Origin: an uncultured Planctomycetales bacterium
Lineage (GTDB): Bacteria; Omnitrophota; Gorgyraeia; Gygaellales; Profunditerraquicolaceae
Length of the DNA stretch: 44,294 nucleotides
Assembly (NCBI GenBank): GCA_964588175.1
Contig: CAZPNW010000074.1
Location: 1-44,294, forward strand
Direction: 5' to 3'
Made by a program: the position numbers and the translations under genes. The stretch's first letter is position 1, and the number at the start of each line of letters is the position of its first letter. A model generated the notes under the pieces. It was not told the DNA's origin and made no database searches. It saw only the letters and a program-made list of their open reading frames with translations. Of this stretch, positions 6,843 to 44,294 are shown one piece after another.

Positions 6843-7451
6843 TTAGCTTTGGTTAATGTTTTCAAGCATTTTTTTACATGCGGCCTGGATAAATTGGACT
6901 GTTTGCGGTGTCAATACCAGGTAAAAACATCCGGTGATCTTCTGTTGTGGTTCTTCAAAGGTCGTTTCTATAAAGAGTACATATTCATTATCAGAGGCGA
7001 GTATCATGTTTAAGATCTGCTTGATCGGGCCGTTTACTAAGGTCGGGATAGAAGGAATGATCAGGGATTGCAAAAGAATACTTAAGGCTCCGACAAAAGA
7101 AGAAATTACCACATTTCCCACTTCTTTCATCAATGACATCCCCATTTCAGTGAATACGCCGCATTGTTTTTCGTCGGGCTTCCTGCCGTAGCACATGTCG
7201 ATCAATTTATATGCGCTTTTTTCGTCAAGAAGGAATAAGATCTTCCCTTCGAGCCCGGTCAGCAGGTTCCCTAAGATACTGACCACGATCTGGTTTTCGC
7301 TAAAACGGTTCAGGATGTCAGCGCTGGAGACAAACGTTAAGGCGGGGACTTTAAGGTTTATTTTTCGCCCGATTATTTCTGAAAGGGCAATACTTCCCTG
7401 GCCGGCTGAAATCGTGCCCATCTCCCTTAAAATGTCCATTTCGTCTTTCAT
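6843..7451 (-). CDS. cheC: CheC/CheX-family chemotaxis phosphatase
   Basis: [24 protein letters not shown] and [18 protein letters not shown] match the duplicated CheC E-x2-N helices. The first site is degenerate (EMGT). It lies 2 nt upstream of the REC-GGDEF gene on the same strand. Confidence 0.65.
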
Positions 7452-7852
7452 ATGATTCCTCCCCGTGTTTCGGGACTATTGTGCAAAGAAGGCATGGTTT
7501 TTTTTATAAACATAATAATTTTGAAAATGAGCATAAAAAATGCTATACTTATAACATTCTTTTGCTGCGAGTATTTTTAGTGCTTTGCAGGAGTACAAAA
7601 TATAAACCGGGAGAATAACTATTCTTCCGGAACGCTCAGCTAGATAAATAATAACATAATTTATTTTAAGGTCAAGCGAAATATGGCGGTATTTGTCTTG
7701 CGTAATAAAAACCTTGACCATTTCATGAACTTGTGCTAAATTTTAATGATACCCCAAGGTAAAATCCTTTTCTTGTAACCTTATCTCTATGAACTTGATT
7801 TATTCCAAATACAATGGTATTATATACTACTAATTTAACTCAAGGAGGCTGG

Positions 7853-9187
7853 ATGAAAGTCAGTATAGAAAAAGTAATAATGAACAAATTCTCACTCGGT
7901 GTGGTGGCCTTGTTTCTGTTCTCTTGTTTTTTGGGTATCACCGGTTGTGCTTCGAAGAAACACGAGTCGAAACCTACTATTACGATCTGGCATTGGATGA
8001 CTGACCGCCAGCCTGCTTTTGAAGAATTGGCAAAGCGATATGAAGCAAAAACCGGGACAAAAGTGTTCTTTGAGTTGTATGCGCCTTCGGATGCGTATTC
8101 CCAGAAAGTACGGGCAGCCGCTCAAGGGGCTAATCTGCCCGATATTTTCGGCATATTGGGTGAGAAAAGGGATTTTTCTTCATTTATAAAAGCCGGGCAT
8201 ATCCTTGATTTAACCCCTTATATGAAAGCTGATAATGCACAATGGGAAAACAGCCTTTTTAGTAAAGCCTTGGCTGTCAATGAATTCACGCCTTCTAATA
8301 GCTATGGTATCAATCCGGGTATTTACGGCGTGCCTATTGATATTATGACCATACAGATGGTCTATAATAAGGATTTAATGAAAGAACTCGGGCTTGACCC
8401 GGAGAAAGCGCCGGCGACATTTGAAGAGTTTATAGCTATCGGCAAGAAGATCAAAGAGAAAAATATCCAGGGCCTCGTTTCGGGGTGGGCTGAGTTATGG
8501 ATGATCGACTGCCTGGCGAATAATTATGCCTTCAATATTATGGGTAGGGATAAGGTGCTCGCGACTATTAAAGGGGAGAGCCCGTATACCGATCCTGACT
8601 GGATCAAGGTGCTTACCCTTTTTAAACAGATGCAGGATTCGGGAATTTTGGCAGGCGGTGTCGTGACTATGGTTAATAAGACTGCTGAACAACTTTTTGC
8701 GACTGATAAAGCGGTCTTTGCTTTTAACGGTTCCTGGTGTGTCAATGTTTACCAGGGGATGAATCCTCAGTTGAACTATGCGGCGATGCTGCCTCCTCTG
8801 GCGTCTGATAAATATCCCATGGCGATATGGGGCGGTGCGGGGTCTTCGTTTATGGTCAACGCGAATTCGCCGAAAAAAGAAGAAGCGGTGAAATTCCTGC
8901 AATGGCTTACCTCAAAAGACCAGGAAGTATATTTAGCTGAAGCGACAAAAAATCTTCCTTCAAACAAGGAAAGTTTAGCGAATATACCTGCGATCCTTTC
9001 TCAGTTCGCGGATGATATGGAACAGACAACACACCCGAATATCTGGGGAGTATCGGAATTCCCGGCGGTGATCGAGGCTTTCGATAAGGGGATACAGTTG
9101 ATCATTATCGGCAAAAAGACCCCTGAGCAGGTAGCAGATGAAGTTCAAAAGATCAAAGAGAGAGAATTAAATAAAAAAAGGAAATAG
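7853..9187 (+). CDS. Sugar ABC transporter substrate-binding lipoprotein (solute-binding family 1)
   Basis: AGGAGG (7843-7848) precedes ATG 7853. Lipobox LGITGC. ITIWHWM...FEELAKRYE pattern of MalE/UgpB-type binding proteins. The longer 7814 ORF start lacks an RBS. Confidence 0.85.
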   Translation: MKVSIEKVIMNKFSLGVVALFLFSCFLGITGCASKKHESKPTITIWHWMTDRQPAFEELAKRYEAKTGTKVFFELYAPSDAYSQKVRAAAQGANLPDIFGILGEKRDFSSFIKAGHILDLTPYMKADNAQWENSLFSKALAVNEFTPSNSYGINPGIYGVPIDIMTIQMVYNKDLMKELGLDPEKAPATFEEFIAIGKKIKEKNIQGLVSGWAELWMIDCLANNYAFNIMGRDKVLATIKGESPYTDPDWIKVLTLFKQMQDSGILAGGVVTMVNKTAEQLFATDKAVFAFNGSWCVNVYQGMNPQLNYAAMLPPLASDKYPMAIWGGAGSSFMVNANSPKKEEAVKFLQWLTSKDQEVYLAEATKNLPSNKESLANIPAILSQFADDMEQTTHPNIWGVSEFPAVIEAFDKGIQLIIIGKKTPEQVADEVQKIKERELNKKRK

Positions 9188-13451: not shown

Positions 13452-13596
13452 TATGCAAGGAGGGAGAAAGGAGGTCGTCGTAGGCGAATCAGAAAAACTT
13501 AAAAATAAATTATAGGGCCGTGTTTTTTATAAAGGACTTCTTAAGCCCTTTGTAAATATTTTTTCAATGGAACGGCAATTAATAAGGAGGAGAGAT

Positions 13597-14754
13597 ATGA
13601 AAAAGTTGGTGCTGGTGGTAATGGCGGTCTGTGCCTGCTTATCCTTAGCTTTCGCTCAGGAAAAAGCTGCCGATAAGGCTGCCGCGGTAAAAGAGTTTGT
13701 TGTTTATTCGGATAAAGGAGCGCGTGACAATCATTATATCCCTTCGGGATGGATGGGTGATTACGGCGATATTAAACTTAATGATCAGGCGACTGATAAG
13801 CCTTATTCCGGAACTACCTGTTTGCAGTTTATTTATTCCGCAAAGAAAACGCAAGGCCAGGGATGGGCGGGTGTTTATTGGCAGAATCCCGCGAATAACT
13901 GGGGTACTAAAAAAGGCGGGTTTGACCTGACCGGTATGACTAAGCTTACCTTCTGGGCGCGCGGTGCCAAAGGTGGAGAAGTTCTGCAGAAGGTTGTTGT
14001 CGGCGGTATAAAAGGGACGTACCCGGATTCTACATCGGTAGAATTCGGCCCGATTGAATTGACTGATAACTGGAAACAATTTACCGTTAATGTGGCGGGG
14101 AAAGACCTTTCGTATATAAACGGCGGTTTTGGCTGGGTTGCGACAAATGATCTTTCTCCTGAAGGCTGTACTTTTTATCTGGATGATATTAAGTTTGAAG
14201 CCGATCCTACCATGAAACCTGCGAGTAAGAAGCAGGAAGCAGTGCCGTTTTATATTTACTCAGACCGGTCCTCGGCGAATAATCATTTTATTCCTTCGGG
14301 CTGGATGGGTGATTACGGCGATTTAAAATATGATGGTGCTTCCAAAGAAGACCCGTATTTAGGCGATACCTGTATTAAGATCCTGTACAGCGGTAAGGCG
14401 ACTCAAGGAGCCCGTTGGGCAGGTATCTACTGGCAGAATCCCGCGAATAACTGGGGTACTGTTGACGGAGGGTTTGACCTTTCTAAAGCTACCAAATTCA
14501 CTTTTTGGGCACGGGGTGCCAAGGGCGGTGAAAGGATCGAAGAATTCAAAGTCGGCGGCATTATGGGAGAATATTCCGACTCAGATACTGCCAGTATCGG
14601 CCCGGTCATCCTGAATAAGGAATGGACACAATACACTATCGACTTAAAAGGAAAAGACCTTTCTTTTATTATCGGTGGGTTTGCGTGGGCGACCAACATC
14701 GATGTGAATCCGGAAGGCGCTGTTCTTTATCTGGATGAACTCAAATACGAATAA
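13597..14754 (+). CDS. Secreted protein made of two tandem ~168-aa homologous domains (carbohydrate-binding-like)
   Basis: AAGGAGGAG RBS before ATG 13597. Signal peptide. Two repeats share HYIPSGWMGDYGD...YWQNPANNWGT..GGFDL...FWARGAKGGE...LDD/ELK(F/Y)E. Confidence 0.7.
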   Translation: MKKLVLVVMAVCACLSLAFAQEKAADKAAAVKEFVVYSDKGARDNHYIPSGWMGDYGDIKLNDQATDKPYSGTTCLQFIYSAKKTQGQGWAGVYWQNPANNWGTKKGGFDLTGMTKLTFWARGAKGGEVLQKVVVGGIKGTYPDSTSVEFGPIELTDNWKQFTVNVAGKDLSYINGGFGWVATNDLSPEGCTFYLDDIKFEADPTMKPASKKQEAVPFYIYSDRSSANNHFIPSGWMGDYGDLKYDGASKEDPYLGDTCIKILYSGKATQGARWAGIYWQNPANNWGTVDGGFDLSKATKFTFWARGAKGGERIEEFKVGGIMGEYSDSDTASIGPVILNKEWTQYTIDLKGKDLSFIIGGFAWATNIDVNPEGAVLYLDELKYE

Positions 14755-14802
14755 TAATCCTTTGGCGCCTGTTTTTCATAGCCGGAGAGAAAAGCGTTAA
14801 TT

Positions 14803-14847
14803 CACTTGAGTCCGTTATCAAAATGATAACGGACTCAAGTGTTTTTT
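14803..14847 (+). terminator. Strong rho-independent terminator
   Basis: Perfect 18-bp stem CACTTGAGTCCGTTATCA (14803-14820) / TGATAACGGACTCAAGTG (14824-14841), 3-nt loop, then TTTTTT (14842-14847). Confidence 0.9.
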
Positions 14848-14868
14848 AAACAATCCCGAGAAATCATA

Positions 14869-16119
14869 ATGAAAAAACAAAGTATTCTTTATTCCGTTAT
14901 CATTCTTTCGCTTTTCTTAATGGGGATGAGCGCGAAAATCAATCCCCGTGTCTATATAAAACAGTTTAAAAACGGCCATTATCAATTGATCGTTAATAAA
15001 AAACCCTATCTTATCAAGGGCGTTTGTTATAATCCTATTCCTATCGGAGAAACCTACAATTATGATTGGTGGTCTAATCAGTATAAACCGTGGCTTGTCG
15101 ACGGGAAACTTATGAAAGCCATGGGCGTTAATACCGTCAGGTTTTACCAGCCTGGCGAGAATCCTGATGCGGTCAAGGCTGTTATCAAGGATTTGTATGA
15201 GCAATATGGGATCCGTTCAGTCATGGGCCATTGGCTTGGGTTTTGGGAATATCCGTGCCCTTTTTACGGCGATAAGGCGTTCCAGGATAAAGTCAGAAAA
15301 GAAGTCCTGGAAATGGTAAACGCCTATAAGGATGAGCCGGGGATCCTGATGTGGGTCTTAGGAAATGAGAATAACTATTCATGTTTGAACCTCGTTCATC
15401 CCTGGTCGAATGATGAGATCGATAAAGAACCCGATCCGCAGAAACAAAAGAATATGCGCGCGCGGATCTATTATTCTTTTGTGAATGACCTGGCCAAAGA
15501 GATACACGCGATAGACCCGCATCATCCGGTAGCATTAGGCAATGGGGAGCTTATCGGCTTAGAGGTTGCCAATGAGGTCTGCCGGGAGGTAGATCTTGTC
15601 GCCTGTATTATTTATCGCGGTAAGACTTTTGGGAATTTATTTAACTCTTTAAAATTGACTTTTGATAAGCCGCTTTTCCTCTCGGAATTCGGCGCGGATT
15701 GTTATGACGCTTTTGCGAAGAAAGAAGACCAGAATATGCAGGCGTTCTTTATGGAGTCGCAATGGCGGCAGATTTACCTCAATGTGGCAAAGAGCCCTGA
15801 GGGGCCGGGTAATTGCATCGGCGGGACCATGTTTGAGTGGAATGATGAGTGGTGGAAGCATAATGAATACAGCCCTGACGGATGGGGCGTACATGATACG
15901 GAATCAAACTGGTCCAACGGCAGCTATTACTTTGATATTAAGGCGGAAAGAAATATGAACATGAATGAAGAATGGTTTGGTATTGTCGCTTTGTCCTCAG
16001 AGGAGAAAGAGGAAGGATTGGATAAGCGGATACCTCGTAAGGCATATTATGTTATCCGGGAATTCTGGAAGAAACCTGTTCTTGAAATTAAAAGTATTCG
16101 GGGGAAAAAGGCAAAATGA
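14869..16119 (+). CDS. Clan GH-A glycoside hydrolase, paralog of the catalytic part of 11058-13451
   Basis: Signal peptide. Motifs YLIKGVCYNP, MGVNTVRFYQP, WVLGNENNYS, PLFLSEFGADCY, GGTMFEWNDEWWKH in the same order as the upstream paralog. The GTG 14839 start is rejected because it lies inside the terminator stem. Confidence 0.7.
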   Translation: MKKQSILYSVIILSLFLMGMSAKINPRVYIKQFKNGHYQLIVNKKPYLIKGVCYNPIPIGETYNYDWWSNQYKPWLVDGKLMKAMGVNTVRFYQPGENPDAVKAVIKDLYEQYGIRSVMGHWLGFWEYPCPFYGDKAFQDKVRKEVLEMVNAYKDEPGILMWVLGNENNYSCLNLVHPWSNDEIDKEPDPQKQKNMRARIYYSFVNDLAKEIHAIDPHHPVALGNGELIGLEVANEVCREVDLVACIIYRGKTFGNLFNSLKLTFDKPLFLSEFGADCYDAFAKKEDQNMQAFFMESQWRQIYLNVAKSPEGPGNCIGGTMFEWNDEWWKHNEYSPDGWGVHDTESNWSNGSYYFDIKAERNMNMNEEWFGIVALSSEEKEEGLDKRIPRKAYYVIREFWKKPVLEIKSIRGKKAK

Positions 16120-17765
16120 AAAAACATACGAGTGATTCGAGACAAAGATTTATTGAAAGATCCCGCCTGGGTTTTATTATCTGTGTTTTGTGGGTTTGCG
16201 CATCGGCAATAGTGCCGCCTGCGCGCGCGCAGCAGAATGATACGGCGGTGGCCCTGACAAAAGAGATCATGGATGCCAAGACCCCCGAGAGCCTTTTTAA
16301 GAGTTTTGAGGCTTTAGCAAGCCAATACGCCGAGAGCCATGCCTATTCTGATTTTGTGGTGTTCTTAAGGTCTTTAGCCCAGAAAAAACAATCACTTGAT
16401 GCGTATATTCATTATCATATCGCTTTCACCCGCTATCAACAACTGAAATACCTTGAAGAAACGCTCGCCTGGGATGAATATTTCAGCCAAGGCAATACCT
16501 ATCGGGAAGATCTTATGTTGAGCGCGCAGAAAGTTATTGAGGTGGCTTCCGTTAACGATTCCCTGAGAGTTTATGCCCGGTTGGTCCTCTGGCAGTTCCA
16601 TTATGACCAGCAGGACGCGTTTCATGAACAGGCGCTTGTTGATTTGATGAATGATGTTGCCGCGTACGCAGGAGGCGCGCCGGATATGCGGCCGGTCAGG
16701 AAAGCTGCGGATACCTTGTTATCGTACGGCCAGAAAGGTAAGTCGCGCGAATTATATAAGCTATATGTGGAAAAAACCATTGCTACGGTCGCCAAAACAG
16801 ATGAGCTTATGACGGCAGCGCTTGATTTTTATAAACAAAACAATTCCGAACTGGCAGAGCTTATGTTTGACGCGTACATCGGGCGGATCACGAATGCCCT
16901 GCCGAAAGAAGAAGCGATCCCTCTTTTAAGGAAAATAGCTTTCTTATTTGTTTATAGAACTCAAGCCGGTTTTCAGGATTTATTATACGCTGAAAGTGTT
17001 TTCGCAAAGATGTCCGCTCTCGGCGGTAAAGATATATTTGATGCCGAATTGCTTTATCAGCGGGCATTGAACGTTGAGAAAGCAAAAGAGTACGCATTAG
17101 CGCGAGCCTATTATGAAGAATTAGTCCAGCGGTATCCCGATGCGCCGTATATTGATGCGGCATGTTTTAAGCTGGGGGCCATGTGCCTGTATGCTTTCCG
17201 GGATCTCAAGACGGGTAAAGAGTACCTTCAGAAAACCGCTCAAAAAGGGTCCGGCAATCCTTATTGCCTGGCGAGCCTTTATCAGCTGGGGCTTTTAAGC
17301 CAATGGGAAGAGGACTATGATGCGGCAAAGAAATATTACGCGGATTGCCTGGAGAAAGCAAAGGGTGATTTCCCGCAGACAGAGTCTATGATACATGAGC
17401 GTATGAAAGAGATCGAGGGGCAGAAACCCCTTGAATATAACCTGAAAACATTTTTAGATACGTCATTAAAACAAGGGTATGAAAATTTCGAAATGAATAA
17501 GCTGGAATTAAAAGTTTCACCGTTAACAGCCCAAAAGGATTCTTCGGTGGCAGTAAGCGCTATGCCCTTCCTGTCGGAAAGCGGCTGCATGCAGGTTTCT
17601 GTCGAATACCTCTGGTCAGGCAACCTCGGTAAAGAATTGCCTGCTTCCGAGCAAGCTTCTTTTCAAACCTCTTATAATGAACTTGGGCCTCAACTGATCA
17701 ATGTGGTCGCGGTTACTGCAAGCGGCATTATTGACCGATGTTTTGTTATCGTTGATATTGAATAA
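16116..17765 (+). CDS. Secreted TPR-repeat protein with a beta-rich C-terminal domain
   Basis: ATGA start/stop overlap with the preceding gene. Signal peptide ...PPARAQQ. Repeated TPR-like A..YY....Y helices, e.g. EYALARAYYEELVQRYPDAPYIDAACFKLG. Confidence 0.6.
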   Translation: MKKHTSDSRQRFIERSRLGFIICVLWVCASAIVPPARAQQNDTAVALTKEIMDAKTPESLFKSFEALASQYAESHAYSDFVVFLRSLAQKKQSLDAYIHYHIAFTRYQQLKYLEETLAWDEYFSQGNTYREDLMLSAQKVIEVASVNDSLRVYARLVLWQFHYDQQDAFHEQALVDLMNDVAAYAGGAPDMRPVRKAADTLLSYGQKGKSRELYKLYVEKTIATVAKTDELMTAALDFYKQNNSELAELMFDAYIGRITNALPKEEAIPLLRKIAFLFVYRTQAGFQDLLYAESVFAKMSALGGKDIFDAELLYQRALNVEKAKEYALARAYYEELVQRYPDAPYIDAACFKLGAMCLYAFRDLKTGKEYLQKTAQKGSGNPYCLASLYQLGLLSQWEEDYDAAKKYYADCLEKAKGDFPQTESMIHERMKEIEGQKPLEYNLKTFLDTSLKQGYENFEMNKLELKVSPLTAQKDSSVAVSAMPFLSESGCMQVSVEYLWSGNLGKELPASEQASFQTSYNELGPQLINVVAVTASGIIDRCFVIVDIE

Positions 17766-19624: not shown

Positions 19625-21283
19625 ATGAATTGGAAAAAGGTAAGATTTTATCTTAAGCTTTATTGGATACGGGGTGTTGTCGCTATTTTCATCACCATCA
19701 TATTCATCATTTTATGCATGATCATTGTCAGCGGGTTGCGTGAATGGCGTACTGCCGATCCCTACCTGCGCCAGTCACAGCTGGCAACCGCGCCACTCCA
19801 GATGTTTATCTGGGGGGTCATGGGTATTGTCCAGGGTGCGGTCTATGTTTTTATGATGTATTGGATGTTTTACAAAAAAGGCGGGCAGTCATTTACGCAT
19901 GTTTCCAAGAAATCGACTTCGGGTGCGAGTATCGGGATCCATTGGGATGATGTTATCGGGATGGACGAGGCAAAGCAGGAGGCTTTGGAAGTCGTTAAGC
20001 TTATCCTTGACCGCGCTCAATTACAGCGTATCGGCGGCAAGATCTTGCGCGGTATACTTATGCTGGGGGCACCCGGCTGCGGCAAGACCTATCTTGCCAA
20101 GGCTATCGCAACCGAAGCAAAGATCCCTTTTATCGCCATGTCGGGCTCTGAATTCGTGGAAATGTTCGTCGGGGTGGGCGCCGGGCGTATCCGCAGCCTT
20201 TTCCAAAGGGCGCGGCAGCTGGCGTCGCTTGAAGGGGGATGTATCATTTTTATCGATGAAATAGACGCTGTCGGCGCGCAGCGCTCAAGTGATACCGGTT
20301 TTGGCGGACAAACAGAAACCAATACGACCTTGAACCAGCTGTTGGTTGAGATGGATGGTTTGAAAGAAAAAGATACGAATGTTGTCGTTATCGGCGCAAC
20401 GAATATGTCAGAGCGTTTTCTTGATGCGGCATTGCTGCGCCCGGGAAGGTTCGACCGTAAGATCTATGTCGATAAGCCGAACCTGGACGACCGTCAAAAG
20501 CTGTTCAGTTATTACCTCAAGAGCGTGCAATTTGATGCAGAGAGCATTAAGATCGACCGCCTGGCGCGTATCACCGTGGGGCAGACTCCTGCGGATATAT
20601 CAAATATTGTGCGTGAAGCCGCCTTGATCGCGGTGAGAAATGATAAAGCGTTAATATCCATGAAGGAGATCGATGAAGCGCGGGAACGCATCGCTTTAGG
20701 TATTAAGCGGCGGATCAAAGTACGCGATGAAGAAAAATGGCAGACTGCGTATCATGAGGCGGGACACGCGATCGTTACCTATCTTTTGGTCCCCACGCAG
20801 GATGTTTTTAAGATCACCATTACTCCCCGCGGACATACAGGCGGGGTTACCTGGACACCGGAGAAAGAAGAGATCTTTATCCGCGATAAGAATAAACTTT
20901 TAAGCGAGATCAAAACCTGCGTGGGTTCGTTTGCCGCTGAAAAGCTGAAATTAGGCACGACGACCGCGGGTGTCGATATGGATTTCCGCGAAGCGATGTA
21001 TATCGCTCATAATATGGTCTGGCGCTGGGGTATGGGCAAGTCCGGTACTATCGGTAATTTTTATGGTATTGAAGGTTCCTGGTTTATTTCCGATGAAACG
21101 AAAGTCCGCCTGGATACCGATGTCCAGGAAATATTGCAGACCTGCTTAAAAGAAGTAGAAGCGCTCCTGAAAAAAGAAGAGCTTCTTTTAGAGCGTTTAG
21201 CTAAAGAATTAGTCGCAAAGGAAGAGCTTAATTATGATGAAATCGAGGCTATTTTTAACGAATTTGGCAAGAAAAGGCCTTAA
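19625..21283 (+). CDS. ftsH: FtsH-family ATP-dependent zinc metalloprotease (short form)
   Basis: Two N-terminal TM segments. Walker A GAPGCGKT. Walker B IIFIDEIDA. Second region of homology LLRPGRFDR. Zinc motif HEAGHAI. Confidence 0.85.
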   Translation: MNWKKVRFYLKLYWIRGVVAIFITIIFIILCMIIVSGLREWRTADPYLRQSQLATAPLQMFIWGVMGIVQGAVYVFMMYWMFYKKGGQSFTHVSKKSTSGASIGIHWDDVIGMDEAKQEALEVVKLILDRAQLQRIGGKILRGILMLGAPGCGKTYLAKAIATEAKIPFIAMSGSEFVEMFVGVGAGRIRSLFQRARQLASLEGGCIIFIDEIDAVGAQRSSDTGFGGQTETNTTLNQLLVEMDGLKEKDTNVVVIGATNMSERFLDAALLRPGRFDRKIYVDKPNLDDRQKLFSYYLKSVQFDAESIKIDRLARITVGQTPADISNIVREAALIAVRNDKALISMKEIDEARERIALGIKRRIKVRDEEKWQTAYHEAGHAIVTYLLVPTQDVFKITITPRGHTGGVTWTPEKEEIFIRDKNKLLSEIKTCVGSFAAEKLKLGTTTAGVDMDFREAMYIAHNMVWRWGMGKSGTIGNFYGIEGSWFISDETKVRLDTDVQEILQTCLKEVEALLKKEELLLERLAKELVAKEELNYDEIEAIFNEFGKKRP

Positions 21284-22118
21284 CCTCTTCATCATACTGA
21301 TCTTTCTGTGCGGCTGTTCTGCTCCCGTTGTCCCTCCCCTTTACGATGATATCGTATCCGCGATAACCAATATTGCCCTGAATGAATATAAGATCGAAAT
21401 TAAGGTAAGGCAAGTCGGCTCGACCTTATGGATCTATATGCCGGTAGAGAATATCTTCGAAAAGACGGATAAGCCGGATAAATACACGGAAAAATTCGAG
21501 ATCTTGAATAATCATAATGAATTCGCCGGCAGCACCTTAAAGCTTGAGTATCAGATAAAGCTTAAGAAAGAGGAAGAGAAGAGCCAGGAATATAAATATA
21601 AAAAAGATATCCTGGAGAAAATGAACAATCTCTGGATGGTGCTGCGAAGGGTGCTTTTCAGCATGGACCGCAGCCGCCAGGAAGAGCCAAAGTTTTTTTC
21701 TATTGTTACTGCCGATATAAAGAATGGGATCGAGATGCGCGAGACTTTTTACTATTTGGATTTAAAGAAAGTATCGTATGGTTTTATTTCCTGGGGGGAA
21801 TACCAGCATCGGGTCATCCAGAGTACGGCGATCGCCCCCGAAGCGATCGGTGATAAAAAGGGCAAATATATCCGTTACCAAAATATCACTTTAGATGAGT
21901 TTATATCCGGCCAGATCGAACACCGTATCAGGCTTAAGTTCCAAAAGCCGGAAGTCGATAAAAATGCCGATATCGATAAAGAAATAGTTGATGTGGCAGT
22001 TGCGACCGTCAAGATCTATAATTTCCGCGATTTTTCGAGTGTCGAGTTCAATAACCAAGTGACCAATAAACGCGTTATTTTAAATAAAGCGGCAGTTTGG
22101 TCGCGGGCGAGTGATTAA
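21234..22118 (+). CDS. Hypothetical lipoprotein (Lys/Glu-rich)
   Basis: Signal peptide with lipobox IFLCGC. Overlaps the ftsH 3' end by 50 nt. I recognise no family signature. Confidence 0.5.
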   Translation: MMKSRLFLTNLARKGLNLFIILIFLCGCSAPVVPPLYDDIVSAITNIALNEYKIEIKVRQVGSTLWIYMPVENIFEKTDKPDKYTEKFEILNNHNEFAGSTLKLEYQIKLKKEEEKSQEYKYKKDILEKMNNLWMVLRRVLFSMDRSRQEEPKFFSIVTADIKNGIEMRETFYYLDLKKVSYGFISWGEYQHRVIQSTAIAPEAIGDKKGKYIRYQNITLDEFISGQIEHRIRLKFQKPEVDKNADIDKEIVDVAVATVKIYNFRDFSSVEFNNQVTNKRVILNKAAVWSRASD

Positions 22119-28918: not shown

Positions 28919-28990
28919 GCTGGCGAGAGGAATTGAACCTCCGACCCGCGCTTTACGAAAGCGCTGCTCTACCAACTGAGCTACGCCAGC
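28919..28990 (-). tRNA. tRNA-Thr (anticodon CGT), CCA not encoded
   Basis: Reverse complement GCTGGCGTAGCTCAGTTGGTAGAGCAGCGCTTTCGTAAAGCGCGGGTCGGAGGTTCAATTCCTCTCGCCAGC folds as a 72-nt cloverleaf with anticodon loop TTCGTAA. Confidence 0.9.
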
Positions 28991-29000
28991 GATTTTAATA

Positions 29001-29028
29001 ATTATACCAATTTTTTCATAATAGTCAA
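29001..29028 (-). promoter_or_regulatory. Sigma70-like promoter of tRNA-Thr
   Basis: On the minus strand: TTGACT (29028-29023), 16-nt spacer, TATAAT (29006-29001), about 10 nt before the mature tRNA 5' end. Confidence 0.6.
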
Positions 29029-29245
29029 TGTTTGGCTGCGGGAAAGCTTATGGGGTTTTAAAGCCCGGTTTTCCCGCTGCCCGGGGTTACCGGTACCCCA
29101 GTGCCCCAGCGTTTTAGTCACAGGTCACATGACACAATGACACAAGCCACAGGACACAGGTCACACGTAGTCCATGGTCCACGGTCCATAGTTAAGGAAA
29201 ACCCAGAGGAACCGGAAAGCCAGGGCTAGGTGATCAGGGGATCTG

Positions 29246-29432
29246 GTGAACGGGTGGCTTGGACTGTTTACGAGCGGGGCATAAAGGCAAGCCTGCCTGA
29301 CGGCAGTCAGGGAGCGGGCACGGATGCCCCTCGTTATACGAAGTCGGGCAGAGCGACGCAGCCGACCTGAGTGCAGCCCCGCCACGTCGGGGCGGGGCAA
29401 ACCTGCCTGACGGCAGTCAGGGAGCCGTTCAC
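29246..29432 (-). ncRNA. Candidate structured RNA core of unknown family (strand inferred, not proven)
   Basis: Closing helix GTGAACGG (29246-29253) / CCGTTCAC (29425-29432). Internal helices at 29270-29282/29324-29334, 29343-29349/29361-29366 and 29376-29383/29391-29398. Exact 24-nt duplicate CCTGCCTGACGGCAGTCAGGGAGC at 29292-29315 and 29402-29425. One compensatory base-pair change relative to the copy at 44262-44294. Confidence 0.4.
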
Positions 29433-29514
29433 TAATAAAGACACTAGGTCTCATGTCGCAAGTCACAAGTAGTTCATGGACTGTTGACTATTTGCGACAT
29501 GTGACCTTTTATGT

Positions 29515-29616
29515 AATGAAGCTGGCGGTTTTGTCGCTTCGCTCCACCGGGATACTCTCAATGCTCAAGCTGCTTTGCCTAAAATCTACATTCGCTCAAA
29601 AACCGCCAGCTTCATT
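29515..29616. other. Perfect 18-bp inverted repeat enclosing a 66-nt loop
   Basis: AATGAAGCTGGCGGTTTT (29515-29532) is the exact reverse complement of AAAACCGCCAGCTTCATT (29599-29616). Confidence 0.8.
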
Positions 29617-29904
29617 TATAGCAATCCATCTACTTGTATCCTGTAACTGTGACTCTTTACTCCTGATCTCCCAATTCCCTGATACCCTGCGACTTGTGTC
29701 TTGTGACCTGTGACTATTGACCGTGGACTATGGACCATAGACTATGGACTAACTTGCGGTTTTAAGAGTATATGACAGAAAGAGGCAAGGCTAGGGCTTG
29801 AATAGGGTTAAGTTATTTTTAATGTTTTTAGTAAGAAAAGCGCGGCAATAGTGCTTATTAACCAGGCATTTATGAAAAATCAGTAGCTTACTTATTAAAA
29901 ACAC

Positions 29905-29933
29905 TTGACTTAAGGTGCTATTGGTAGTATAAA
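29905..29933 (+). promoter_or_regulatory. Sigma70-like promoter of the ROK regulator gene
   Basis: TTGACT (29905-29910), 17-nt spacer, TATAAA (29928-29933), about 50 nt upstream of ATG 29982. Confidence 0.5.
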
Positions 29934-29981
29934 TAAATCCAATAATAATTTTTTTCTAGAGCCACGGGGAAAGGCATTGAC

Positions 29982-31214
29982 ATGAAGTTCAATAATTTTC
30001 AGAAAGAGGAATTTTCGGAAAAAGAAAAACGAAATATTGACATTTTTGAGATCCTGCGCAGGCTCGGGCCTATCAGCCGGCCGGAAATCTCTAAGGAGAT
30101 CGGCATAAACGTAGTAACCATATCTAATTATATTGATGAATTCATAAAATATAATCTCGTGTATGAAAAAGAATTAGACCGTTCTGAAGGCGGCAGGCGC
30201 CCGACACTCCTGGACCTGAATCCTCAAGGAGGCTATGTCATCGGCGTAGGCTTAAACCTTATGAATATTGTCGGTGTCTTGATCGATTTAAAAGGCAATA
30301 TTATTACTAAAACTCAGATCGCCCGCCCCCGCCCATCGGTAAAAGAGATCACGGAGTGCCTCTTGCAGATCATTCGCGAGATCATCAGGCGTTCTAAAGA
30401 ATATACTTCTCAGATCAAAGGGATCGGCATCGGCATCGCCGGCTTGATCAATAAAAAAGACGGCTCTATCCATTGGCCGCAAAAGATGGACCATTATTAC
30501 ACATATGCGTCGGTAGACTTGCCGTTAAAAGATTTGATCGAGCGGGAATTCAATCTTCCGGCGATGATAGAGAACGATGCCACCAGCGCCTGTTTTGGAG
30601 AATATTGGCTGGGTTCGGGTTTCGGGCTGAAGAATGTTATTTATATGTTTTCCGGAGTCGGCTGCGGGATGATGGTCAACGGCGAGATCTATCGGGGCAC
30701 CCAGGGGTACGCAGGCGAGGTGTCTATTTATAATTATAAGGAACAAGACGCGTTTAATTGCGAATTAGGCAATAGTTGTTTCATGAAACGCTGGGAAATA
30801 GACCTGGGGATTGTTGAAGATGTTAAATCTTTGATGAATAAAGACAAGCAGGGGGCTGATAGGTTCCTGAAATTGACTTCAGCCACTCTTGATAATGTTG
30901 ACTTAAAAAGCGTTTTTATCGCTGCACGCGCTAAAGACCCGATCGCTTGTTCCGCGTTAGACCTGGCCGCCAAGCGCCTGGGGATCAAGATCGCCTCCAT
31001 TGTTAATTTCCTGAATCCTGAGATGGTTGTTATCGGCGGCGGTTTAGAAGAGGCGGGAGACGATTTCCTTAATAAAGTTACTTCAACGGTCAAAGAGTGG
31101 GCGTTCAGGGAGATCGTTGAAGATTTAAAAATCGTTTATTCTCAGTTGAGGGAGAATTCCGTTGCCTTGGGCGCGGCAAGCTTGGTTATGCAGCGGGTGT
31201 TCGCGAAATTATAA
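29982..31214 (+). CDS. ROK-family transcriptional regulator (NagC/XylR-like, N-terminal wHTH plus sugar-kinase fold)
   Basis: N-terminal HTH ILRRLGPISRPEISKEIGINVVTISNYIDEF. ROK core GIGIGIAGLINKKDG...ENDATSACFGE...GVGCGMMVNGEIYRG..GYAGE. Confidence 0.8.
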   Translation: MKFNNFQKEEFSEKEKRNIDIFEILRRLGPISRPEISKEIGINVVTISNYIDEFIKYNLVYEKELDRSEGGRRPTLLDLNPQGGYVIGVGLNLMNIVGVLIDLKGNIITKTQIARPRPSVKEITECLLQIIREIIRRSKEYTSQIKGIGIGIAGLINKKDGSIHWPQKMDHYYTYASVDLPLKDLIEREFNLPAMIENDATSACFGEYWLGSGFGLKNVIYMFSGVGCGMMVNGEIYRGTQGYAGEVSIYNYKEQDAFNCELGNSCFMKRWEIDLGIVEDVKSLMNKDKQGADRFLKLTSATLDNVDLKSVFIAARAKDPIACSALDLAAKRLGIKIASIVNFLNPEMVVIGGGLEEAGDDFLNKVTSTVKEWAFREIVEDLKIVYSQLRENSVALGAASLVMQRVFAKL

Positions 31215-39566: not shown

Positions 39567-40238
39567 ATGAAGAAAACAAATGATCATTATCCGCAGCTTA
39601 AAAAATTCTCTTTAGAGAAAGGTTTCGATCTCTTCGGGGTTGCCGATATTACGGAGGTCAAAAAGGAATTCGCGCTTTCTCAGGAAGTAATAAAGGGAAT
39701 GGATCGGGCGGTTTCTGTCGCGGTGAGGCTATCTTCCGGCATCTTGGAAGAGATCATTGATGCTCCCACGCGGCTGTATTTTCATCACTATCGTTGCGCC
39801 AATACTTTTCTTGATCAGGCGGCATTTCAGCTGAGCCAGTATATCCAAAGAAAAGGGTACCGGGCCCTGCCCATCCCTGCTTCACAGATAGTCGATTGGC
39901 AGAAACAATCCGCGCACCTCTCGCATAAAAAGGTCGCGGTACTGGCAGGCTTAGGCTGGTTGGGCAGAAATAACCTGGTAGTCAACAAAAAGCTGGGGGC
40001 GCAATTCCGGCTGGCGACTATTTTGACCGATATGCCGCTTAAGGCTGATAAGCCTGCCGCTGATACCTGCGGGAATTGCCGGGCTTGCGTAGCCGCTTGT
40101 CCTGCCGGGGCGATCAAAGAAAACGCGATTGGCTTTGATCACCAGAGATGTTTTGAGAAATTAAAGGATTTTCAGAAACAGAGGCTCGTGGACCAGTTTA
40201 TTTGCGGGGTATGTGTCACAAACTGCAAGGGAAAATAA
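39567..40238 (+). CDS. Short QueG-like 4Fe-4S protein (epoxyqueuosine-reductase-related)
   Basis: AVLAGLGWLGRNNLVVNKKLGAQFRLATILTDMPL, then CGNCRACVAACPAGAI and CGVCVTNC resemble the QueG core. At 223 aa it is much shorter than canonical QueG. Confidence 0.5.
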   Translation: MKKTNDHYPQLKKFSLEKGFDLFGVADITEVKKEFALSQEVIKGMDRAVSVAVRLSSGILEEIIDAPTRLYFHHYRCANTFLDQAAFQLSQYIQRKGYRALPIPASQIVDWQKQSAHLSHKKVAVLAGLGWLGRNNLVVNKKLGAQFRLATILTDMPLKADKPAADTCGNCRACVAACPAGAIKENAIGFDHQRCFEKLKDFQKQRLVDQFICGVCVTNCKGK

Positions 40239-42649: not shown

Positions 42650-43849
42650 TTGATATTCTTAGCCGGCAGCCAAATTAAAGAAATTACCAGGATCTTAGAG
42701 AAAGTTCTAACCGGAGATTATCATGTCCGGATCCCTGCGTATTACGCTTCTGTTGCGATAAAACGATTAGTACATGTTTTAAATGAACTTCTGGCAAAAG
42801 TAGAATCTCATGTCGGTCTGCTTGAAAAAGAGAACAGGCAGCATCAAGCTATTCTGGGTAATATGGCAGAAGCGGTGATCGCGGTTGATAAAGATACCCG
42901 GATCATTTCAGTTAATCCTTCGGGAGAAAAGATGCTGAATATCCCGGGGCGCCAGATCGTCGGTAAATTGTTCCTTGAGGTGTTCCCTAATAATGATATT
43001 GGAGAGATCATAACGGATGTCTTACGCAGCGGCAAGTTCCTGCCGAAAGAGTTGAGTGTCATTTGGCCCCTGCAAAAGACATTCCAGGTGAACGCGGCCC
43101 CGTTATTTGAGAACAGCGCGGTAAACGGCTGTGTCCTGGTGATCCATGATATTACCGAGATGAGGAGGCTGGAGAAAGTGCGCTCTGATTTTGTGGCAAA
43201 TGTCTCCCATGAATTAAAGACACCGCTTACCTCGATCAAAGGTTTTGTCGAGACGCTTTTAGAAGGAGCCATCGATGATAAAGAAGAAAGCCGGAACTTC
43301 TTAAAGATCGTTCAGGAGCATGCGGAACGTTTAGACAGGCTGACCAGCGATTTATTAAGCCTCTCGAGCCTGGAGTCGCGCCAGGCGGAAATAAAGAAAG
43401 AAAAGGTCGCGGTCAGGCAACTTGTTGAACAGATCGCCTCAGGATTCAGCGTTCAGTTAAAAAAGAAGTCTTTGCGATTCGAAAATAAAGTGTCTGATGA
43501 TGTTTCTGCCCATGCGGATAAGAACAGGATAGAACAGGTATTCACCAATCTTATCGATAATGCTATTAAATTTAACCGTGAAAGCGGTTTGGTAGAAGTC
43601 TCTGCGCTTATGCAGGGAGGGTTTGTGAAGTTTATCGTTAAGGATACCGGCAGCGGTATTCCTGAAAAAGATATTCCCCGTATCTTTGAACGTTTTTACC
43701 GCGTTGATAAAGGGCGTTCCCGCGAACTCGGAGGAACCGGCCTTGGCCTTTCTATCGTTAAGCACATAATCGAATCGCACGACGGAAGTGTAGGGGTGGT
43801 AAGCACCGAAGGCCTGGGTTCAGAGTTTTGGTTTACCCTGAGCGTCTGA
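42650..43849 (+). CDS. phoR: PhoR-like sensor histidine kinase without transmembrane region (HAMP-like, PAS, HisKA, HATPase)
   Basis: TTG start 3 nt after phoB. DFVANVSHELKTPLTSIKGF H-box. N, G1 and G2 boxes (NLIDNAIKF, DTGSGIP, GGTGLGLSIVKH). RFYRVDKGRSR is typical of PhoR. Confidence 0.7.
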   Translation: MIFLAGSQIKEITRILEKVLTGDYHVRIPAYYASVAIKRLVHVLNELLAKVESHVGLLEKENRQHQAILGNMAEAVIAVDKDTRIISVNPSGEKMLNIPGRQIVGKLFLEVFPNNDIGEIITDVLRSGKFLPKELSVIWPLQKTFQVNAAPLFENSAVNGCVLVIHDITEMRRLEKVRSDFVANVSHELKTPLTSIKGFVETLLEGAIDDKEESRNFLKIVQEHAERLDRLTSDLLSLSSLESRQAEIKKEKVAVRQLVEQIASGFSVQLKKKSLRFENKVSDDVSAHADKNRIEQVFTNLIDNAIKFNRESGLVEVSALMQGGFVKFIVKDTGSGIPEKDIPRIFERFYRVDKGRSRELGGTGLGLSIVKHIIESHDGSVGVVSTEGLGSEFWFTLSV

Positions 43850-43945
43850 TAGCTTTAGTGTTGGTTAAGTCGAAGGGTTTACCCTGAGCGCCTGATAGCT
43901 TTACCTGTTAATTCAGTCGAAGGGCTTACCCTGAGCGTGTAGCTT
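43831..43945 (+). repeat. Three tandem copies (46-47-bp period) of the last codons and stop of phoR
   Basis: GTTTACCCTGAGCGTCTGATAGCTTTA (43831-43857, includes the phoR stop), GTTTACCCTGAGCGCCTGATAGCTTTA (43877-43903) and GCTTACCCTGAGCGTGTAGCTT (43924-43945). The last two are each preceded by GTCGAAGG. Confidence 0.8.
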
Positions 43946-43993: not shown

Positions 43994-44178
43994 GTAACTT
44001 TACGGTCATGCTTACGCGCACTGAAAACTTTCGCCGTGCACTGCGGTTTACGGCTCGTTTACGCTATAGACTTACGTAAAGAGCGCGCTTCAACTCGCCG
44101 TAATCCCTTGTGCACTCCAGGTAAAACTCAGTGCCGAAAGTTTTCTAATGTGCGCTCCAGCATAACCGTAAAGTTTAC
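43994..44178. repeat. Long imperfect hairpin (~40-bp stem) built from reiterated TTACG/CGTAA motifs
   Basis: GTAACTTTACGGTCATGCT...GAAAACTTTCG (43994-44033) against CGAAAGTTTTC...AGCATAACCGTAAAGTTTAC (44135-44178). TTACG occurs at 44000, 44012, 44048, 44059 and 44072; CGTAA at 44075, 44099 and 44167. Confidence 0.7.
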
Positions 44179-44181
44179 CAC

Positions 44182-44294
44182 CAACCATGGACTATCGACC
44201 ATTGACCATCGACTCTTTGCGACATGGGACCTGCGACTTGTGTCCGGTTAATGTCCTTATGAGTGAACGGGTCCCTGCCTACCGGCAGGCAGGC
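44182..44294 (+). repeat. Second copy (inverted relative to the first, truncated by the window end) of the 29117-29753 element: heptad GAC block plus the start of the structured core
   Basis: GAC at 44190, 44197, 44204, 44211, then 44221, 44228, 44235. GCGACATGGGACCT...GAGTGAACGGGTCCCTGCCTACCGGCAGGCAGG aligns with the reverse complement of 29401-29500. Confidence 0.7.

What the first reader, a model, noticed from the sequence alone, without database searches (positions are those of the whole stretch)
29691..29749. Strict 7-nt periodic G(A/T)C arrays flanking the structured core
GAC (once GTC) starts at 29691, 29698, 29705, 29712, 29719, 29726, 29733, 29740 and 29747, which is nine consecutive heptads (TGTGACC TGTGACT ATTGACC GTGGACT ATGGACC ATAGACT ATGGACT). 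On the other side of the core the complementary-type block has G-N-C at 29117, 29124, 29131, (29139), 29146, 29153, 29160 and 29167, then GTC at 29170, 29177 and 29184 after a 3-nt phase shift. The copy at the window end shows the same layout: GAC at 44190/197/204/211, a 3-nt phase shift, then 44221/228/235. A 7-nt period fits neither coding (3 nt) nor the DNA helical repeat (10.5 bp). The two motif sub-blocks (GTGAC-type and GGACC-type) occur in swapped order on the two sides, so the flanks are not simple terminal inverted repeats, although they could pair block by block. The arrays could be binding sites for a modular nucleic-acid-binding protein, or arms of alternative long-range helices.
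Basis: seen in the sequence. Interest (0 to 1): 0.65.

Follow-up and report, generated by a model that had tools for sequence, protein, structure and literature searches.

The report
Heptamer-repeat arrays in mosaic intergenic element
The 7-base-periodic GAC/GTC arrays are real; they are modules of a multi-copy, non-coding mosaic repeat family in one clade of uncultured Omnitrophota bacteria, the same general kind as the still-unexplained intergenic heptamer repeats of cyanobacteria and Xanthomonas.

Summary
G(A/T)C recurs nine times at exactly 7-nt spacing from 29691; shuffled sequence never gives more than three, and no other period does this.

The arrays are not special flanks of one core. 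They are polar, two-part heptamer modules, (GWCRCAN)n – GTA – (GTCNAYR)n. The modules recur at many intergenic sites in this Omnitrophota lineage and in one related genome (JBAZKL01), often with no core nearby. They usually abut an ORF boundary and point away from it.

The window copy (about 29029–29873) is a lineage-specific insertion of about 0.84 kb between the tRNA-Thr and ROK promoters. It is absent from four relatives. It contains four arrays, GGGNATC-type heptamers, hairpin modules and a degenerate structured core.

Long-range pairing of the arrays is not conserved: other copies carry them in direct orientation or alone. Four of seven positions are nearly invariant across 146 units. An orthologous array in another species changed only at the variable positions and by whole units.

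Best reading: a heptameric tandem-repeat/mosaic interspersed repeat that changes length by slippage. It is under sequence constraint, possibly from an unidentified factor with a 7-nt footprint. Function is unproven.

The parts
29029..29873 (+). Whole non-coding mosaic insertion (copy 1), sitting between the divergent -35 boxes of the tRNA-Thr promoter and the ROK-gene promoter
   Evidence: Relatives L005, L009, L028 and L029 have only about 250-330 bp between the flanking genes (about 200 nt from the tRNA to ROK in L029, whose MFS gene is off the contig) and lack this block. The tRNA promoter TTGACT-16-TATAAT lies at 29028-29001 on the minus strand. The 844-nt block has RNA MFE -329 kcal/mol (z -8.1) on the + strand against -308 (z -4.3) on the - strand.
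29034..29081 (.). Hairpin module GGCTGCGGGAAA...TTTCCCGCTGCC, followed at 29082-29116 by CCCCAGT-like units
   Evidence: Inverted repeat I18; sequence
29117..29166 (+). Left array, A block: 7 units of GWCRCAN, one of them 8 nt long
29167..29169 (+). GTA spacer giving the conserved 3-nt phase shift between the A and B blocks
   Evidence: Present at the A/B junction of all 13 complete A-B arrays compared, as GTA, or AGA in the 3' arrays of type-2 copies
29170..29192 (+). Left array, B block: 3 units of GTCNAYR
29228..29245 (+). GGGNATC-type heptamers (AGGTGATC AGGGGATC); the reverse-complement set lies at 29660-29690
   Evidence: This is the same unit type as the Xanthomonas/Nostoc repeats of PMC4692102. 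Longer runs occur in L018 and L026.
29246..29432 (+). Structured core, degenerate copy. The P1 helix (GTGAACGG / CCGTTCAC) is kept, but the 3' strands of P2 and P3 are missing.
   Evidence: Alignment of 7 cores. Folds: full-length cores L023 and L024 form a closing stem of about 30 bp plus a multibranch junction, z -7.9 and -9.4. Helices covary: GCGGGG/CCCCGC against GCAGGG/CCCTGC, and GCCCCGCC/GGCGGGGC against GTTTTGCC/GGCAAAAC. No Rfam match.
29292..29311 (+). 20-nt palindrome CCTGCCTGACGGCAGTCAGG, first copy, a precise insertion relative to L023 and L024
   Evidence: (D1)
29402..29421 (+). 20-nt palindrome, second copy, a precise insertion relative to L024
29448..29478 (+). Middle array M1: 3 A units, GTA, 1 B unit
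29475..29507 (-). Middle array M2: the inverted continuation (GAC type on the + strand), which forms a hairpin with M1
   Evidence: I10, 16 nt at 94% complementary
29515..29616 (.). Hairpin module H: 18-bp perfect stem with a 66-nt loop
   Evidence: I8. The homologue in L024 carries a compensatory change, GAAGCTGG/CCAGCTTC against GAACCTGG/CCAGGTTC.
29687..29716 (-). Right array, A-type units (the flagged finding, first half)
29717..29751 (-). Right array, B-type units (the flagged finding, second half). Read in the GTC sense the order is B then A with no GTA spacer, so this is not a simple inverted copy of the left array.
43996..44175 (-). Copy 2: long hairpin module
   Evidence: Self-complementary. 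90% identical copies in L014 and L020. More stable on the element's sense strand in both copies.
44186..44244 (-). Copy 2: 3' array on the minus strand, with 4 A units, AGA, then 4 B units
   Evidence: Near-identical arrays in L018 and L019.
44245..44294 (-). Copy 2: conserved linker TCATAAGGACATTAACCG and the 3' part of the core, cut by the contig end
   Evidence: L018 supplies the missing half: the core, then another A-GTA-B array, then GGGNATC units, then the divergent pstS gene.

Best explanation
The arrays are modules of a lineage-specific, multi-copy, non-coding mosaic interspersed repeat in a clade of Candidatus Omnitrophota.

Each canonical module is a polar, two-part tandem heptamer repeat. 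It has 2-7 units of G-W-C-R-C-A-N, then a 3-nt GTA spacer, then 1-5 units of G-T-C-N-A-Y-R. Modules are combined with other heptamer classes (GGGNATC, CCCCAGT-like), hairpin modules, a tiny 20-nt palindrome and a structured core.

Shown:
- The modules are dispersed in many intergenic regions of housekeeping operons.
- They sit next to ORF boundaries and point away from them.
- They occur with or without the core.
- The window copy is a 0.84-kb insertion absent from relatives.
- Array length changes by whole units.
- Four of seven positions per unit are almost invariant, also between species.

Inferred:
- The arrays grow and shrink by replication slippage or unequal recombination in 7-nt steps. 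This is the explanation proposed in the literature for the general excess of heptamer repeats in bacteria.
- The modules spread by an unidentified copying or recombination process.
- They are mostly co-transcribed with neighbouring genes.
- The invariant positions are held by recognition in a 7-nt register by an unidentified factor, or by gene conversion among copies.

The complementarity between the left and right arrays of copy 1 is a by-product of having modules in both orientations. It is not the conserved feature.
For: Periodicity is real and confined to two loci in the window.

Distribution:
- The A/B-junction pattern CACANGWCACANGTAGTCNNNNGTC hit 9 sites in 596 Gb of genomes. All were in one Omnitrophota MAG, with zero chance hits elsewhere.
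- A core pattern found 4 further metagenome loci.
- The same A-GTA-B layout appears at argG-argH, after lexA, at pstB-phoU, upstream of pstS and purD, and after a wecB-like gene. No mobile-element genes are nearby.
[quoted passage not shown] Five lie upstream of a divergent gene on the antisense strand. One is antisense between genes.
- This matches the location rule reported for GGGNATC heptamer repeats (PMC4692102).

Mobility and copy number:
- The orthologous tRNA-Thr/ROK spacer is empty in four relatives.
- Three of five metagenome contigs break inside the element.

Constraint:
- Unit logos and a chi-square test on adjacent-unit differences give p = 1.7e-38.
- In the orthologous pstS-upstream array (L018 against L026, flanks 84% identical), all 7 substitutions fall at variable positions and the indels are unit-sized.

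Several unrelated heptamer classes share period 7 in the same elements. This points to a generic 7-nt process.
Against: - Pure slippage predicts near-identical neighbouring units. Here 73 of 104 adjacent pairs differ at position 7, while positions 1, 3 and 5 almost never differ. Slippage alone is therefore insufficient, and some constraint or templating must be added.
- No mobilising enzyme, target-site duplication or terminal inverted repeat was found at the insertion ends.
- No transcription data exist, and no promoters or terminators were detected inside the element.
- The orientation statistics rest on about 13 independent arrays.
- Only one orthologous array pair could be compared.
Confidence: 0.6

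Rival explanations
1. The arrays are functional multi-site binding platforms. An oligomeric or filament-forming protein binds one unit per subunit in a 7-nt register, either on the transcript (HutP/TRAP-like, Csp/S1-like) or on double-stranded DNA (ribbon-helix-helix omega-like). It thereby regulates the neighbouring genes or organises the DNA. This overlaps with the best explanation rather than excluding it.
For: - Positions 1, 3, 5, 6 (A units) and 1, 2, 3, 5 (B units) are nearly invariant in 146 units, while positions 2/4/7 vary freely.
- In orthologous arrays, 7 of 7 substitutions fall at variable positions; (3/7)^7 is about 0.003.
- The polarity and the 3-nt phase shift are fixed at every locus.
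- Placement within 3-30 nt of stop codons inside operons is consistent.
- Arrays alone are unstructured, as a single-strand platform would be.
- 7-nt registers are known for HutP (NAG-N4), omega (WATCACW) and Csp heptanucleotide sites (own knowledge; Csp also discussed in PMC4679880).
Against: - At least four or five unrelated heptamer classes share period 7 in the same elements, which would need several binders.
- No candidate binder gene lies next to any array.
- Copies are mosaic and partly degenerate.
- The associated genes have unrelated functions.
- Gene conversion among hundreds of copies could mimic the constraint.
Confidence: 0.3
2. The arrays are arms of long-range or alternative RNA (or single-stranded DNA) helices that enclose the core, pairing block by block as a structural switch.
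For: In copy 1, 29115-29137 pairs with 29694-29716 (23 nt, 96%), 29168-29192 pairs with 29727-29751 (25 nt, 88%), and M1 pairs with M2. The MFE of the 844-nt block uses the A/A' pairing, with z -8.1.
Against: - The second element type has the same arrays in direct orientation on both sides of the core.
- Many arrays are solo.
- The swapped block order makes simultaneous A-A' and B-B' pairing a crossing (pseudoknot) topology.
- There are no compensatory changes between arms; mismatches are a mix of G.U and C.A.
- Arrays alone have z about 0.
Confidence: 0.07
3. The arrays are subterminal transposase-binding repeats of a non-autonomous transposon (MITE-like). Solo arrays are remnants of such elements.
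For: - Presence/absence polymorphism at the tRNA-Thr/ROK locus.
- Inverted arrays near both sides of copy 1.
- Assemblies break in the element.
- Full-length cores have about 30-bp TIR-like closing stems.
Against: - The arrays are 85 and 122 nt inside the insertion boundaries.
- No terminal inverted repeat or target-site duplication is present at the boundaries.
- No transposase lies in 44 kb of window or near any of about 15 arrays.
- The right array is not an inverted copy of the left one.
- An orthologous array has been retained across species with constrained substitutions.
Confidence: 0.1
4. The arrays are omega-type (ribbon-helix-helix ParB) heptad iterons that act as a centromere or operator.
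For: The period is 7 bp, units occur in direct and inverted orientation, and A units read NGTCACA against the omega heptad WATCACW, sharing the TCAC core (sequence; omega motif from own knowledge).
Against: - The setting is chromosomal, with an estimated tens to hundreds of sites inside housekeeping operons.
- There is no partition or RHH gene nearby.
- Position 4 of the putative TCAC core varies (A/G/T).
- B units do not resemble the omega motif.
Confidence: 0.03

Closest known systems
GGGNATC / GGGGA(C/T)T intergenic heptameric repeats of Xanthomonas and Nostoc (Rehm et al. 2015, PMC4692102)
   Same: Both are tandem 7-nt units that are dispersed, intergenic and variable in unit number. Inverted sets occur. 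Both are preferentially placed just after stop codons on the sense strand or just upstream of ORFs on the antisense strand. The associated genes have unrelated functions, and the function of the repeats is unknown. GGGNATC-type units are themselves present in this element (29228-29245, 29660-29690; longer runs in L018 and L026).
   Different: The flagged arrays are not G-rich and cannot form G-quadruplexes. Their units are degenerate at 3 of 7 positions. Two unit classes occur in a fixed polar order with a 3-nt phase shift. They are embedded in a larger mosaic with hairpins and a structured core.
STRR heptanucleotide repeats of heterocystous cyanobacteria and TAACTGA repeats of Beggiatoaceae, cyanobacteria and Bacteroidetes (MacGregor 2015, PMC4679880; STRR from own knowledge and as cited in PMC4692102)
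   Same: Both are lineage-restricted families of tandem heptamers in intergenic DNA, often right next to ORFs. Several heptamer classes can occur in one genome. Contigs break in the arrays. Binding by Csp, S1 or CsrA-type proteins has been proposed but is untested.
   Different: Those repeats are mostly perfect copies of one heptamer. Here the units are degenerate and the arrays are two-part and polar. The phylum (Omnitrophota) is also different.
REP/BIME and REPIN elements of proteobacteria (REPINs: PMC3116915)
   Same: Both are high-copy, species-specific, non-coding mosaics of short modules. Both lie between co-transcribed genes or at 3' ends, and inverted pairs form hairpins.
   Different: REP units are 20-40-nt imperfect palindromes, not tandem heptamers. 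They are tied to a RAYT transposase, and none was found here. A GTAG tetranucleotide does occur at the A/B junction (GTAGTC), but that is only a resemblance.
Small dispersed repeats (SDR) of Nostoc (Elhai et al. 2008, cited in PMC3116915; content from own knowledge, paper not held)
   Same: Both are very small (about 20-nt) palindromic sequences found as precise insertions in otherwise homologous repeats. By recollection, the Nostoc elements are associated with tandem heptamer arrays. Compare the 20-nt CCTGCCTGACGGCAGTCAGG inserted at three different sites.
   Different: The sequences are different and the phylum is different. Mobility here is inferred from only three insertion sites.
Omega (RHH) heptad iterons of inc18 plasmids, and HutP NAG-N4 RNA sites (own knowledge)
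   Same: Both show a 7-nt register of repeated protein-binding units, in direct or inverted orientation for omega.
   Different: Those systems have a handful of sites next to the genes they regulate and a dedicated binder gene. Here there are many chromosomal sites and no binder is known. More positions are conserved per unit than a triplet.

Membership tests
Prokaryotic intergenic heptameric tandem repeats (STRR / GGGNATC / TAACTGA kind) | Head-to-tail units of 7 nt, two or more per array | tested here: met
   Arrays have 3-12 units, with one 8-nt unit and a fixed 3-nt spacer between blocks.
Prokaryotic intergenic heptameric tandem repeats (STRR / GGGNATC / TAACTGA kind) | Many dispersed intergenic copies in one genome, with variable unit number between loci and between related genomes | tested here: met
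   There are 2 loci in the 44-kb window and at least 15 arrays in 56 kb of JBAZKL01 pieces, which were selected around 9 pattern hits. Unit-sized indels separate the orthologous arrays in L018 and L026.
Prokaryotic intergenic heptameric tandem repeats (STRR / GGGNATC / TAACTGA kind) | [quoted passage not shown] | tested here: met
   This holds for 11 of 12 arrays with clear context. The sample is small and there is no genome-wide control.
Prokaryotic intergenic heptameric tandem repeats (STRR / GGGNATC / TAACTGA kind) | Units are (near-)identical copies of a single heptamer | tested here: not met
   Units are degenerate at positions 2, 4 and 7, and two unit classes occur in a fixed order. For this reason the arrays are filed as a variant, not a plain member.
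REP / BIME / REPIN | Unit is a 20-40-nt imperfect palindrome with a conserved 5' GT(A/G)G | tested here: not met
   A-B arrays are not palindromic and fold no better than shuffles. GTAG occurs only at the A/B junction.
REP / BIME / REPIN | A RAYT (Y1 HUH transposase) gene in the genome flanked by the repeats | not testable with these tools
   No whole genome of the clade could be scanned. None is present in the window or in the 8-kb loci examined.
MITE (non-autonomous DNA transposon) | Terminal inverted repeats at the element ends plus a target-site duplication | tested here: not met
   The boundaries of the 29029-29873 insertion, compared with the empty sites, show neither feature. Core P1-P3 resembles TIRs, but conserved element sequence continues outside it.
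Omega-type RHH heptad iterons | Units match WATCACW and lie next to an RHH/partition gene | tested here: not met
   Only A units share TCAC, and position 4 varies. There is no such gene nearby.
HutP/TRAP-type RNA triplet arrays | A conserved triplet (NAG / GAG) with non-conserved spacers, located in a leader upstream of a terminator | tested here: not met
   Four to five positions per unit are conserved, there is no NAG or GAG, and no terminators are present.
Any Rfam family (structured core or arrays) | Covariance-model score at or above the gathering threshold | tested here: not met
   Only two tRNAs were found in the window. Nothing was found in 28990-29990 at E up to 10 beyond noise, and nothing in five related loci.

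The most novel reading that the evidence does not exclude
The two-part heptamer arrays are the cis sites of a clade-wide system in which an oligomeric protein reads RNA or DNA in a strict 7-nt register. Separate A-type and B-type subsites would be offset by a fixed 3 nt. In this reading, the associated multibranch core with a 30-bp closing stem is a new mobile structured RNA. The shared placement rule with the Xanthomonas and Nostoc heptamers would then reflect a general, still unknown function of bacterial heptamer repeats.
Probability: 0.18. Interest if true: 0.75.

Novelty: new variant of a known kind. Interest (0 to 1): 0.45.

Why it matters
Intergenic heptamer repeats have been known since 1990 in cyanobacteria. 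They were later found in Xanthomonas, Beggiatoaceae and Bacteroidetes, and they still have no established function or origin.

This finding adds a fourth, very distant lineage, the uncultured Omnitrophota. The same placement next to ORF ends recurs. There is also an unusually informative signature: degenerate units with four invariant positions, a fixed two-part polarity, and constrained substitutions between species. That pattern argues that the arrays are read by some factor and are not merely slippage debris.

Practically, these elements break metagenome assemblies, including this contig end. They can also create chimeric joins.

Tried and rejected
- **Rfam.** At gathering and permissive thresholds, on the window and on five related loci, only tRNAs were found.
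- **Viral-contig scans.** The linker pattern gave four chance hits inside phage coding genes. The array-junction pattern gave none. A phage origin is rejected.
- **First genome scan.** The core/linker pattern gave nothing, so the window's species is not in that collection.
- **Exact-protein look-ups.** Three window proteins near the contig end were not on record, so copy 2 could not be extended directly. It was reconstructed from L018 and L019 instead.
- **Promoter and terminator scans.** Only the flanking tRNA promoter was found, and nothing inside the elements.
- **Small ORFs in the element** (42-101 aa) overlap hairpins and arrays and are absent from relatives. They were treated as non-coding.
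- **Strand test by folding energy.** The core and the long hairpin favour the GTC-sense strand, in 6 of 7 and 2 of 2 copies. Hairpin H and the AT-rich hairpin do not. This was too mixed to decide between RNA and DNA.
- **Ideas considered and dropped:** pho-box resemblance of CTGTGAC units, Rho rut sites, CsrA GGA sites, and DNA uptake sequences. None fitted the motif or the distribution.
- **Literature.** The Elhai 2008 paper could not be read.

Full report
**Observation.** The sequence shows exactly what was described.
- G(A/T)C occurs at nine consecutive 7-nt steps from 29691.
- A GTC/GNC series lies on the other side (29117-29160, with one 8-nt unit), followed after a 3-nt shift by GTC at 29170/177/184.
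- A second set lies at 44190-44244 with the same 3-nt shift.
- The only slip is that 29167 is GTA, the spacer itself, not G-N-C.
- A chain of nine is far beyond chance. The longest chain in 300 Markov shuffles was three, and no period from 4 to 12 other than 7 gives more than three.
- Tandem Repeats Finder reports period-7 arrays only at these two loci.
- An independent metagenome contig reproduces the 1.2-kb region at 99.9% identity, so it is not an assembly artefact.

**Context.** The window is an ordinary chromosomal segment of a Candidatus Omnitrophota bacterium.
- It encodes transporters, enolase, FtsH, Rnf, NrdJ, MnmG, PitA and PhoU/PnpRS, with no mobile-element genes.
- Copy 1 lies in a 1.09-kb spacer between tRNA-Thr (minus strand) and a ROK regulator gene.
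- In four relatives with 79-86% identical ROK proteins, the corresponding intergenic region is only about 250-330 bp (MFS gene to ROK; about 200 nt from the tRNA to ROK in L029), tRNA included, and has none of this sequence.
- The window therefore carries an insertion of about 0.84 kb (about 29029-29873), placed exactly between the two divergent promoters.
- The window is a whole contig. Its end falls inside copy 2, and three of five other contigs of the same organism break inside copy 1. This is the signature of a multi-copy repeat.

**Anatomy of copy 1**. In order it contains:
- a small hairpin and CCCCAGT-like units;
- the left array, with seven A units of GWCRCAN, GTA, then three B units of GTCNAYR;
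- GGGNATC-type units;
- the core;
- a middle A-GTA-B array that turns directly into its inverted form, making a hairpin;
- an 18-bp hairpin module;
- reverse-complement GGGNATC units;
- the flagged right array;
- 122 nt of further inserted sequence.

Read in the GTC sense, the right array is B then A with no spacer.

**Other copies.**
- A core pattern found four more metagenome loci.
- The A/B-junction pattern, searched in 596 Gb of genomes, hit nine times, all in one Omnitrophota MAG (JBAZKL01) and nowhere else.
- These copies change the picture. The A-GTA-B module recurs with the same polarity and the same 3-nt shift at argG-argH, after lexA, at pstB-phoU, upstream of pstS, purD and an MGMT-like gene (read from the sequence, not scanned), and after a wecB-like gene. 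It often has no core.
- In the element type that includes copy 2 (completed by L018 and L019), A-B arrays flank the core on both sides in direct orientation.
- Pairing between arrays is therefore not conserved, and neither is a strict link to the core.
- Isolated arrays fold no better than shuffles.
- The strong fold of the whole 844-nt block (z -8.1) comes from the hairpin modules and from the incidental presence of arrays in both orientations.

**Placement.** Of the arrays with clear context:
- five lie upstream of a divergently transcribed gene on the antisense strand;
- one is antisense between co-directional genes.

In both main cases, the start of the A block abuts the ORF boundary and the array points away from it. 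Rehm et al. reported the same rule for GGGNATC heptamer repeats of Xanthomonas and Nostoc. Those repeats are transcribed and of unknown function (PMC4692102). GGGNATC-type units are themselves part of these elements.

**Constraint.**
- In 79 A and 67 B units from about 20 arrays, positions 1, 3, 5, 6 (A) and 1, 2, 3, 5 (B) are 96-100% invariant. Positions 2/4/7 (A) and 4/7 (B) vary freely (B position 6 is mostly T).
- Differences between adjacent units are concentrated at positions 7, 4 and 2 (chi-square p = 1.7e-38).
- The pstS-upstream array is orthologous between the window-type organism (L018) and JBAZKL01 (L026), and the flanking DNA is 84% identical.
- Both species have the same GGGNATC + A + B layout.
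- All seven substitutions in the A and B blocks fall at variable positions; (3/7)^7 is about 0.003.
- The indels are whole units, and homology ends right after the B block.
- Change by whole units fits slippage or unequal recombination. The literature offers this explanation for the general excess of heptamer repeats in bacteria (PMC4679880, PMC4692102).
- The position-specific invariance is not explained by slippage alone. It needs selection or conversion.

**The core and other modules.**
- Full-length cores (L023, L024) form a closing stem of about 30 bp (P1-P3) around a multibranch junction, with z -7.9 and -9.4.
- Helices covary between copies. Examples are GCCCCGCC/GGCGGGGC against GUUUUGCC/GGCAAAAC, GCGGGG/CCCCGC against GCAGGG/CCCTGC, and CCTGAC-GGCA-GTCAGG against CCTGCC-GGTA-GGCAGG.
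- The core of copy 1 has lost the 3' strands of P2 and P3 and is degenerate.
- A 20-nt palindrome is a precise insertion at three different sites within cores.
- Modules occur in different combinations at different loci.
- No Rfam family matches any of this.
- Folding-energy asymmetry favours the GTC-sense strand for the core (6 of 7) and the long hairpin (2 of 2), but not for two other hairpin modules. The RNA-versus-DNA question stays open.

**Interpretation.**
- Best supported: the flagged arrays are modules of a lineage-specific mosaic interspersed repeat built largely from tandem heptamers. It is a variant of the known but unexplained class of bacterial intergenic heptamer repeats.
- The modules change length by whole units, are dispersed to many intergenic sites, and are under sequence constraint.
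- I consider it likely, but unproven, that a factor with a 7-nt footprint reads them. Against a single binder, several unrelated heptamer classes share the period.
- The long-range-helix idea is not supported.
- Transposon-end and omega-iteron readings fail their defining tests: no TIR, TSD or transposase, and no RHH gene or matching motif.

**Limits.**
- No whole genome of the clade could be scanned.
- Array statistics rest on about 13 independent contexts and one orthologous pair.
- There are no expression data.
- STRR, SDR, omega and HutP details come from my own knowledge, apart from what PMC4692102, PMC4679880 and PMC3116915 state.
- A full-text search found no prior description of such arrays in Omnitrophota.

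Noticed in passing
window 43830-43937: A 47-bp tandem repeat (2.3 copies) duplicates the last codons and the stop codon of the PnpS-type histidine kinase gene. The syntenic locus in JBAZKL01 (L026 about 7810-8000) has at least 3 copies at 84-88% identity. A related short module, CCCTYGACAA-N5-GGGTAAAC, occurs inside elements at unrelated loci (L014, L017).
   Followed up: partly
window 29292-29311 and 29402-29421; also L017, L018, L014: The 20-nt palindrome CCTGCCTGACGGCAGTCAGG (variant CCTGCCTGCCGGTAGGCAGG, with a compensatory stem change) is a precise insertion at three different positions of otherwise homologous cores. It behaves like a very small mobile or templated insertion.
   Followed up: partly
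L023:4736-4908, L024:5885-6090; degenerate copy at window 29246-29432: This is a structured core family: a closing stem of about 30 bp plus a 3-4-way junction. Helices covary between copies, and an 80-nt segment is 95% identical between species whose pstS-region DNA (the only cross-species comparison made) is about 84% identical. There is no Rfam match. It could be an undescribed structured RNA or a MITE-like hairpin.
   Followed up: partly
L014:1-700 against window 29392-30000: Contig L014 joins the left half of a different element copy (the one upstream of purH in L020) to the right half of copy 1. The join runs through a shared repeat of about 50 nt. It is either an assembly chimera or a real recombinant.
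   Followed up: no
window 29228-29245; L018/L026 upstream of pstS: GGTGATC/AGGTGATC units are complementary to the 3' end of 16S rRNA (the extended Shine-Dalgarno GGAGGTGATC, from own knowledge). Arrays of them lie in non-coding DNA and are not followed by start codons.
   Followed up: no
window 29515-29616 and L024:5585-5840: The 18-bp hairpin module is conserved in JBAZKL01 with a compensatory base-pair change and an extra insertion of about 140 nt in its loop.
   Followed up: partly
L023:4320-4660, L026:7495-7800, L022:6738-6780, L025:3945-4089: This is another repeat module: long AT-rich hairpins built from GGTTAAG/CTTTAAT-type 7-nt units, with a CCTGCC-NNNN-GGCAGG apex. It replaces the core at the pstS locus of JBAZKL01.
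   Followed up: no
window 13567-17765, 58-561, 6843-7451, 21234-22118, 39567-40238: Several sizeable ORFs (167-549 aa), including three consecutive ones at 13567-17765, have no Pfam match at E <= 1e-8.
   Followed up: no
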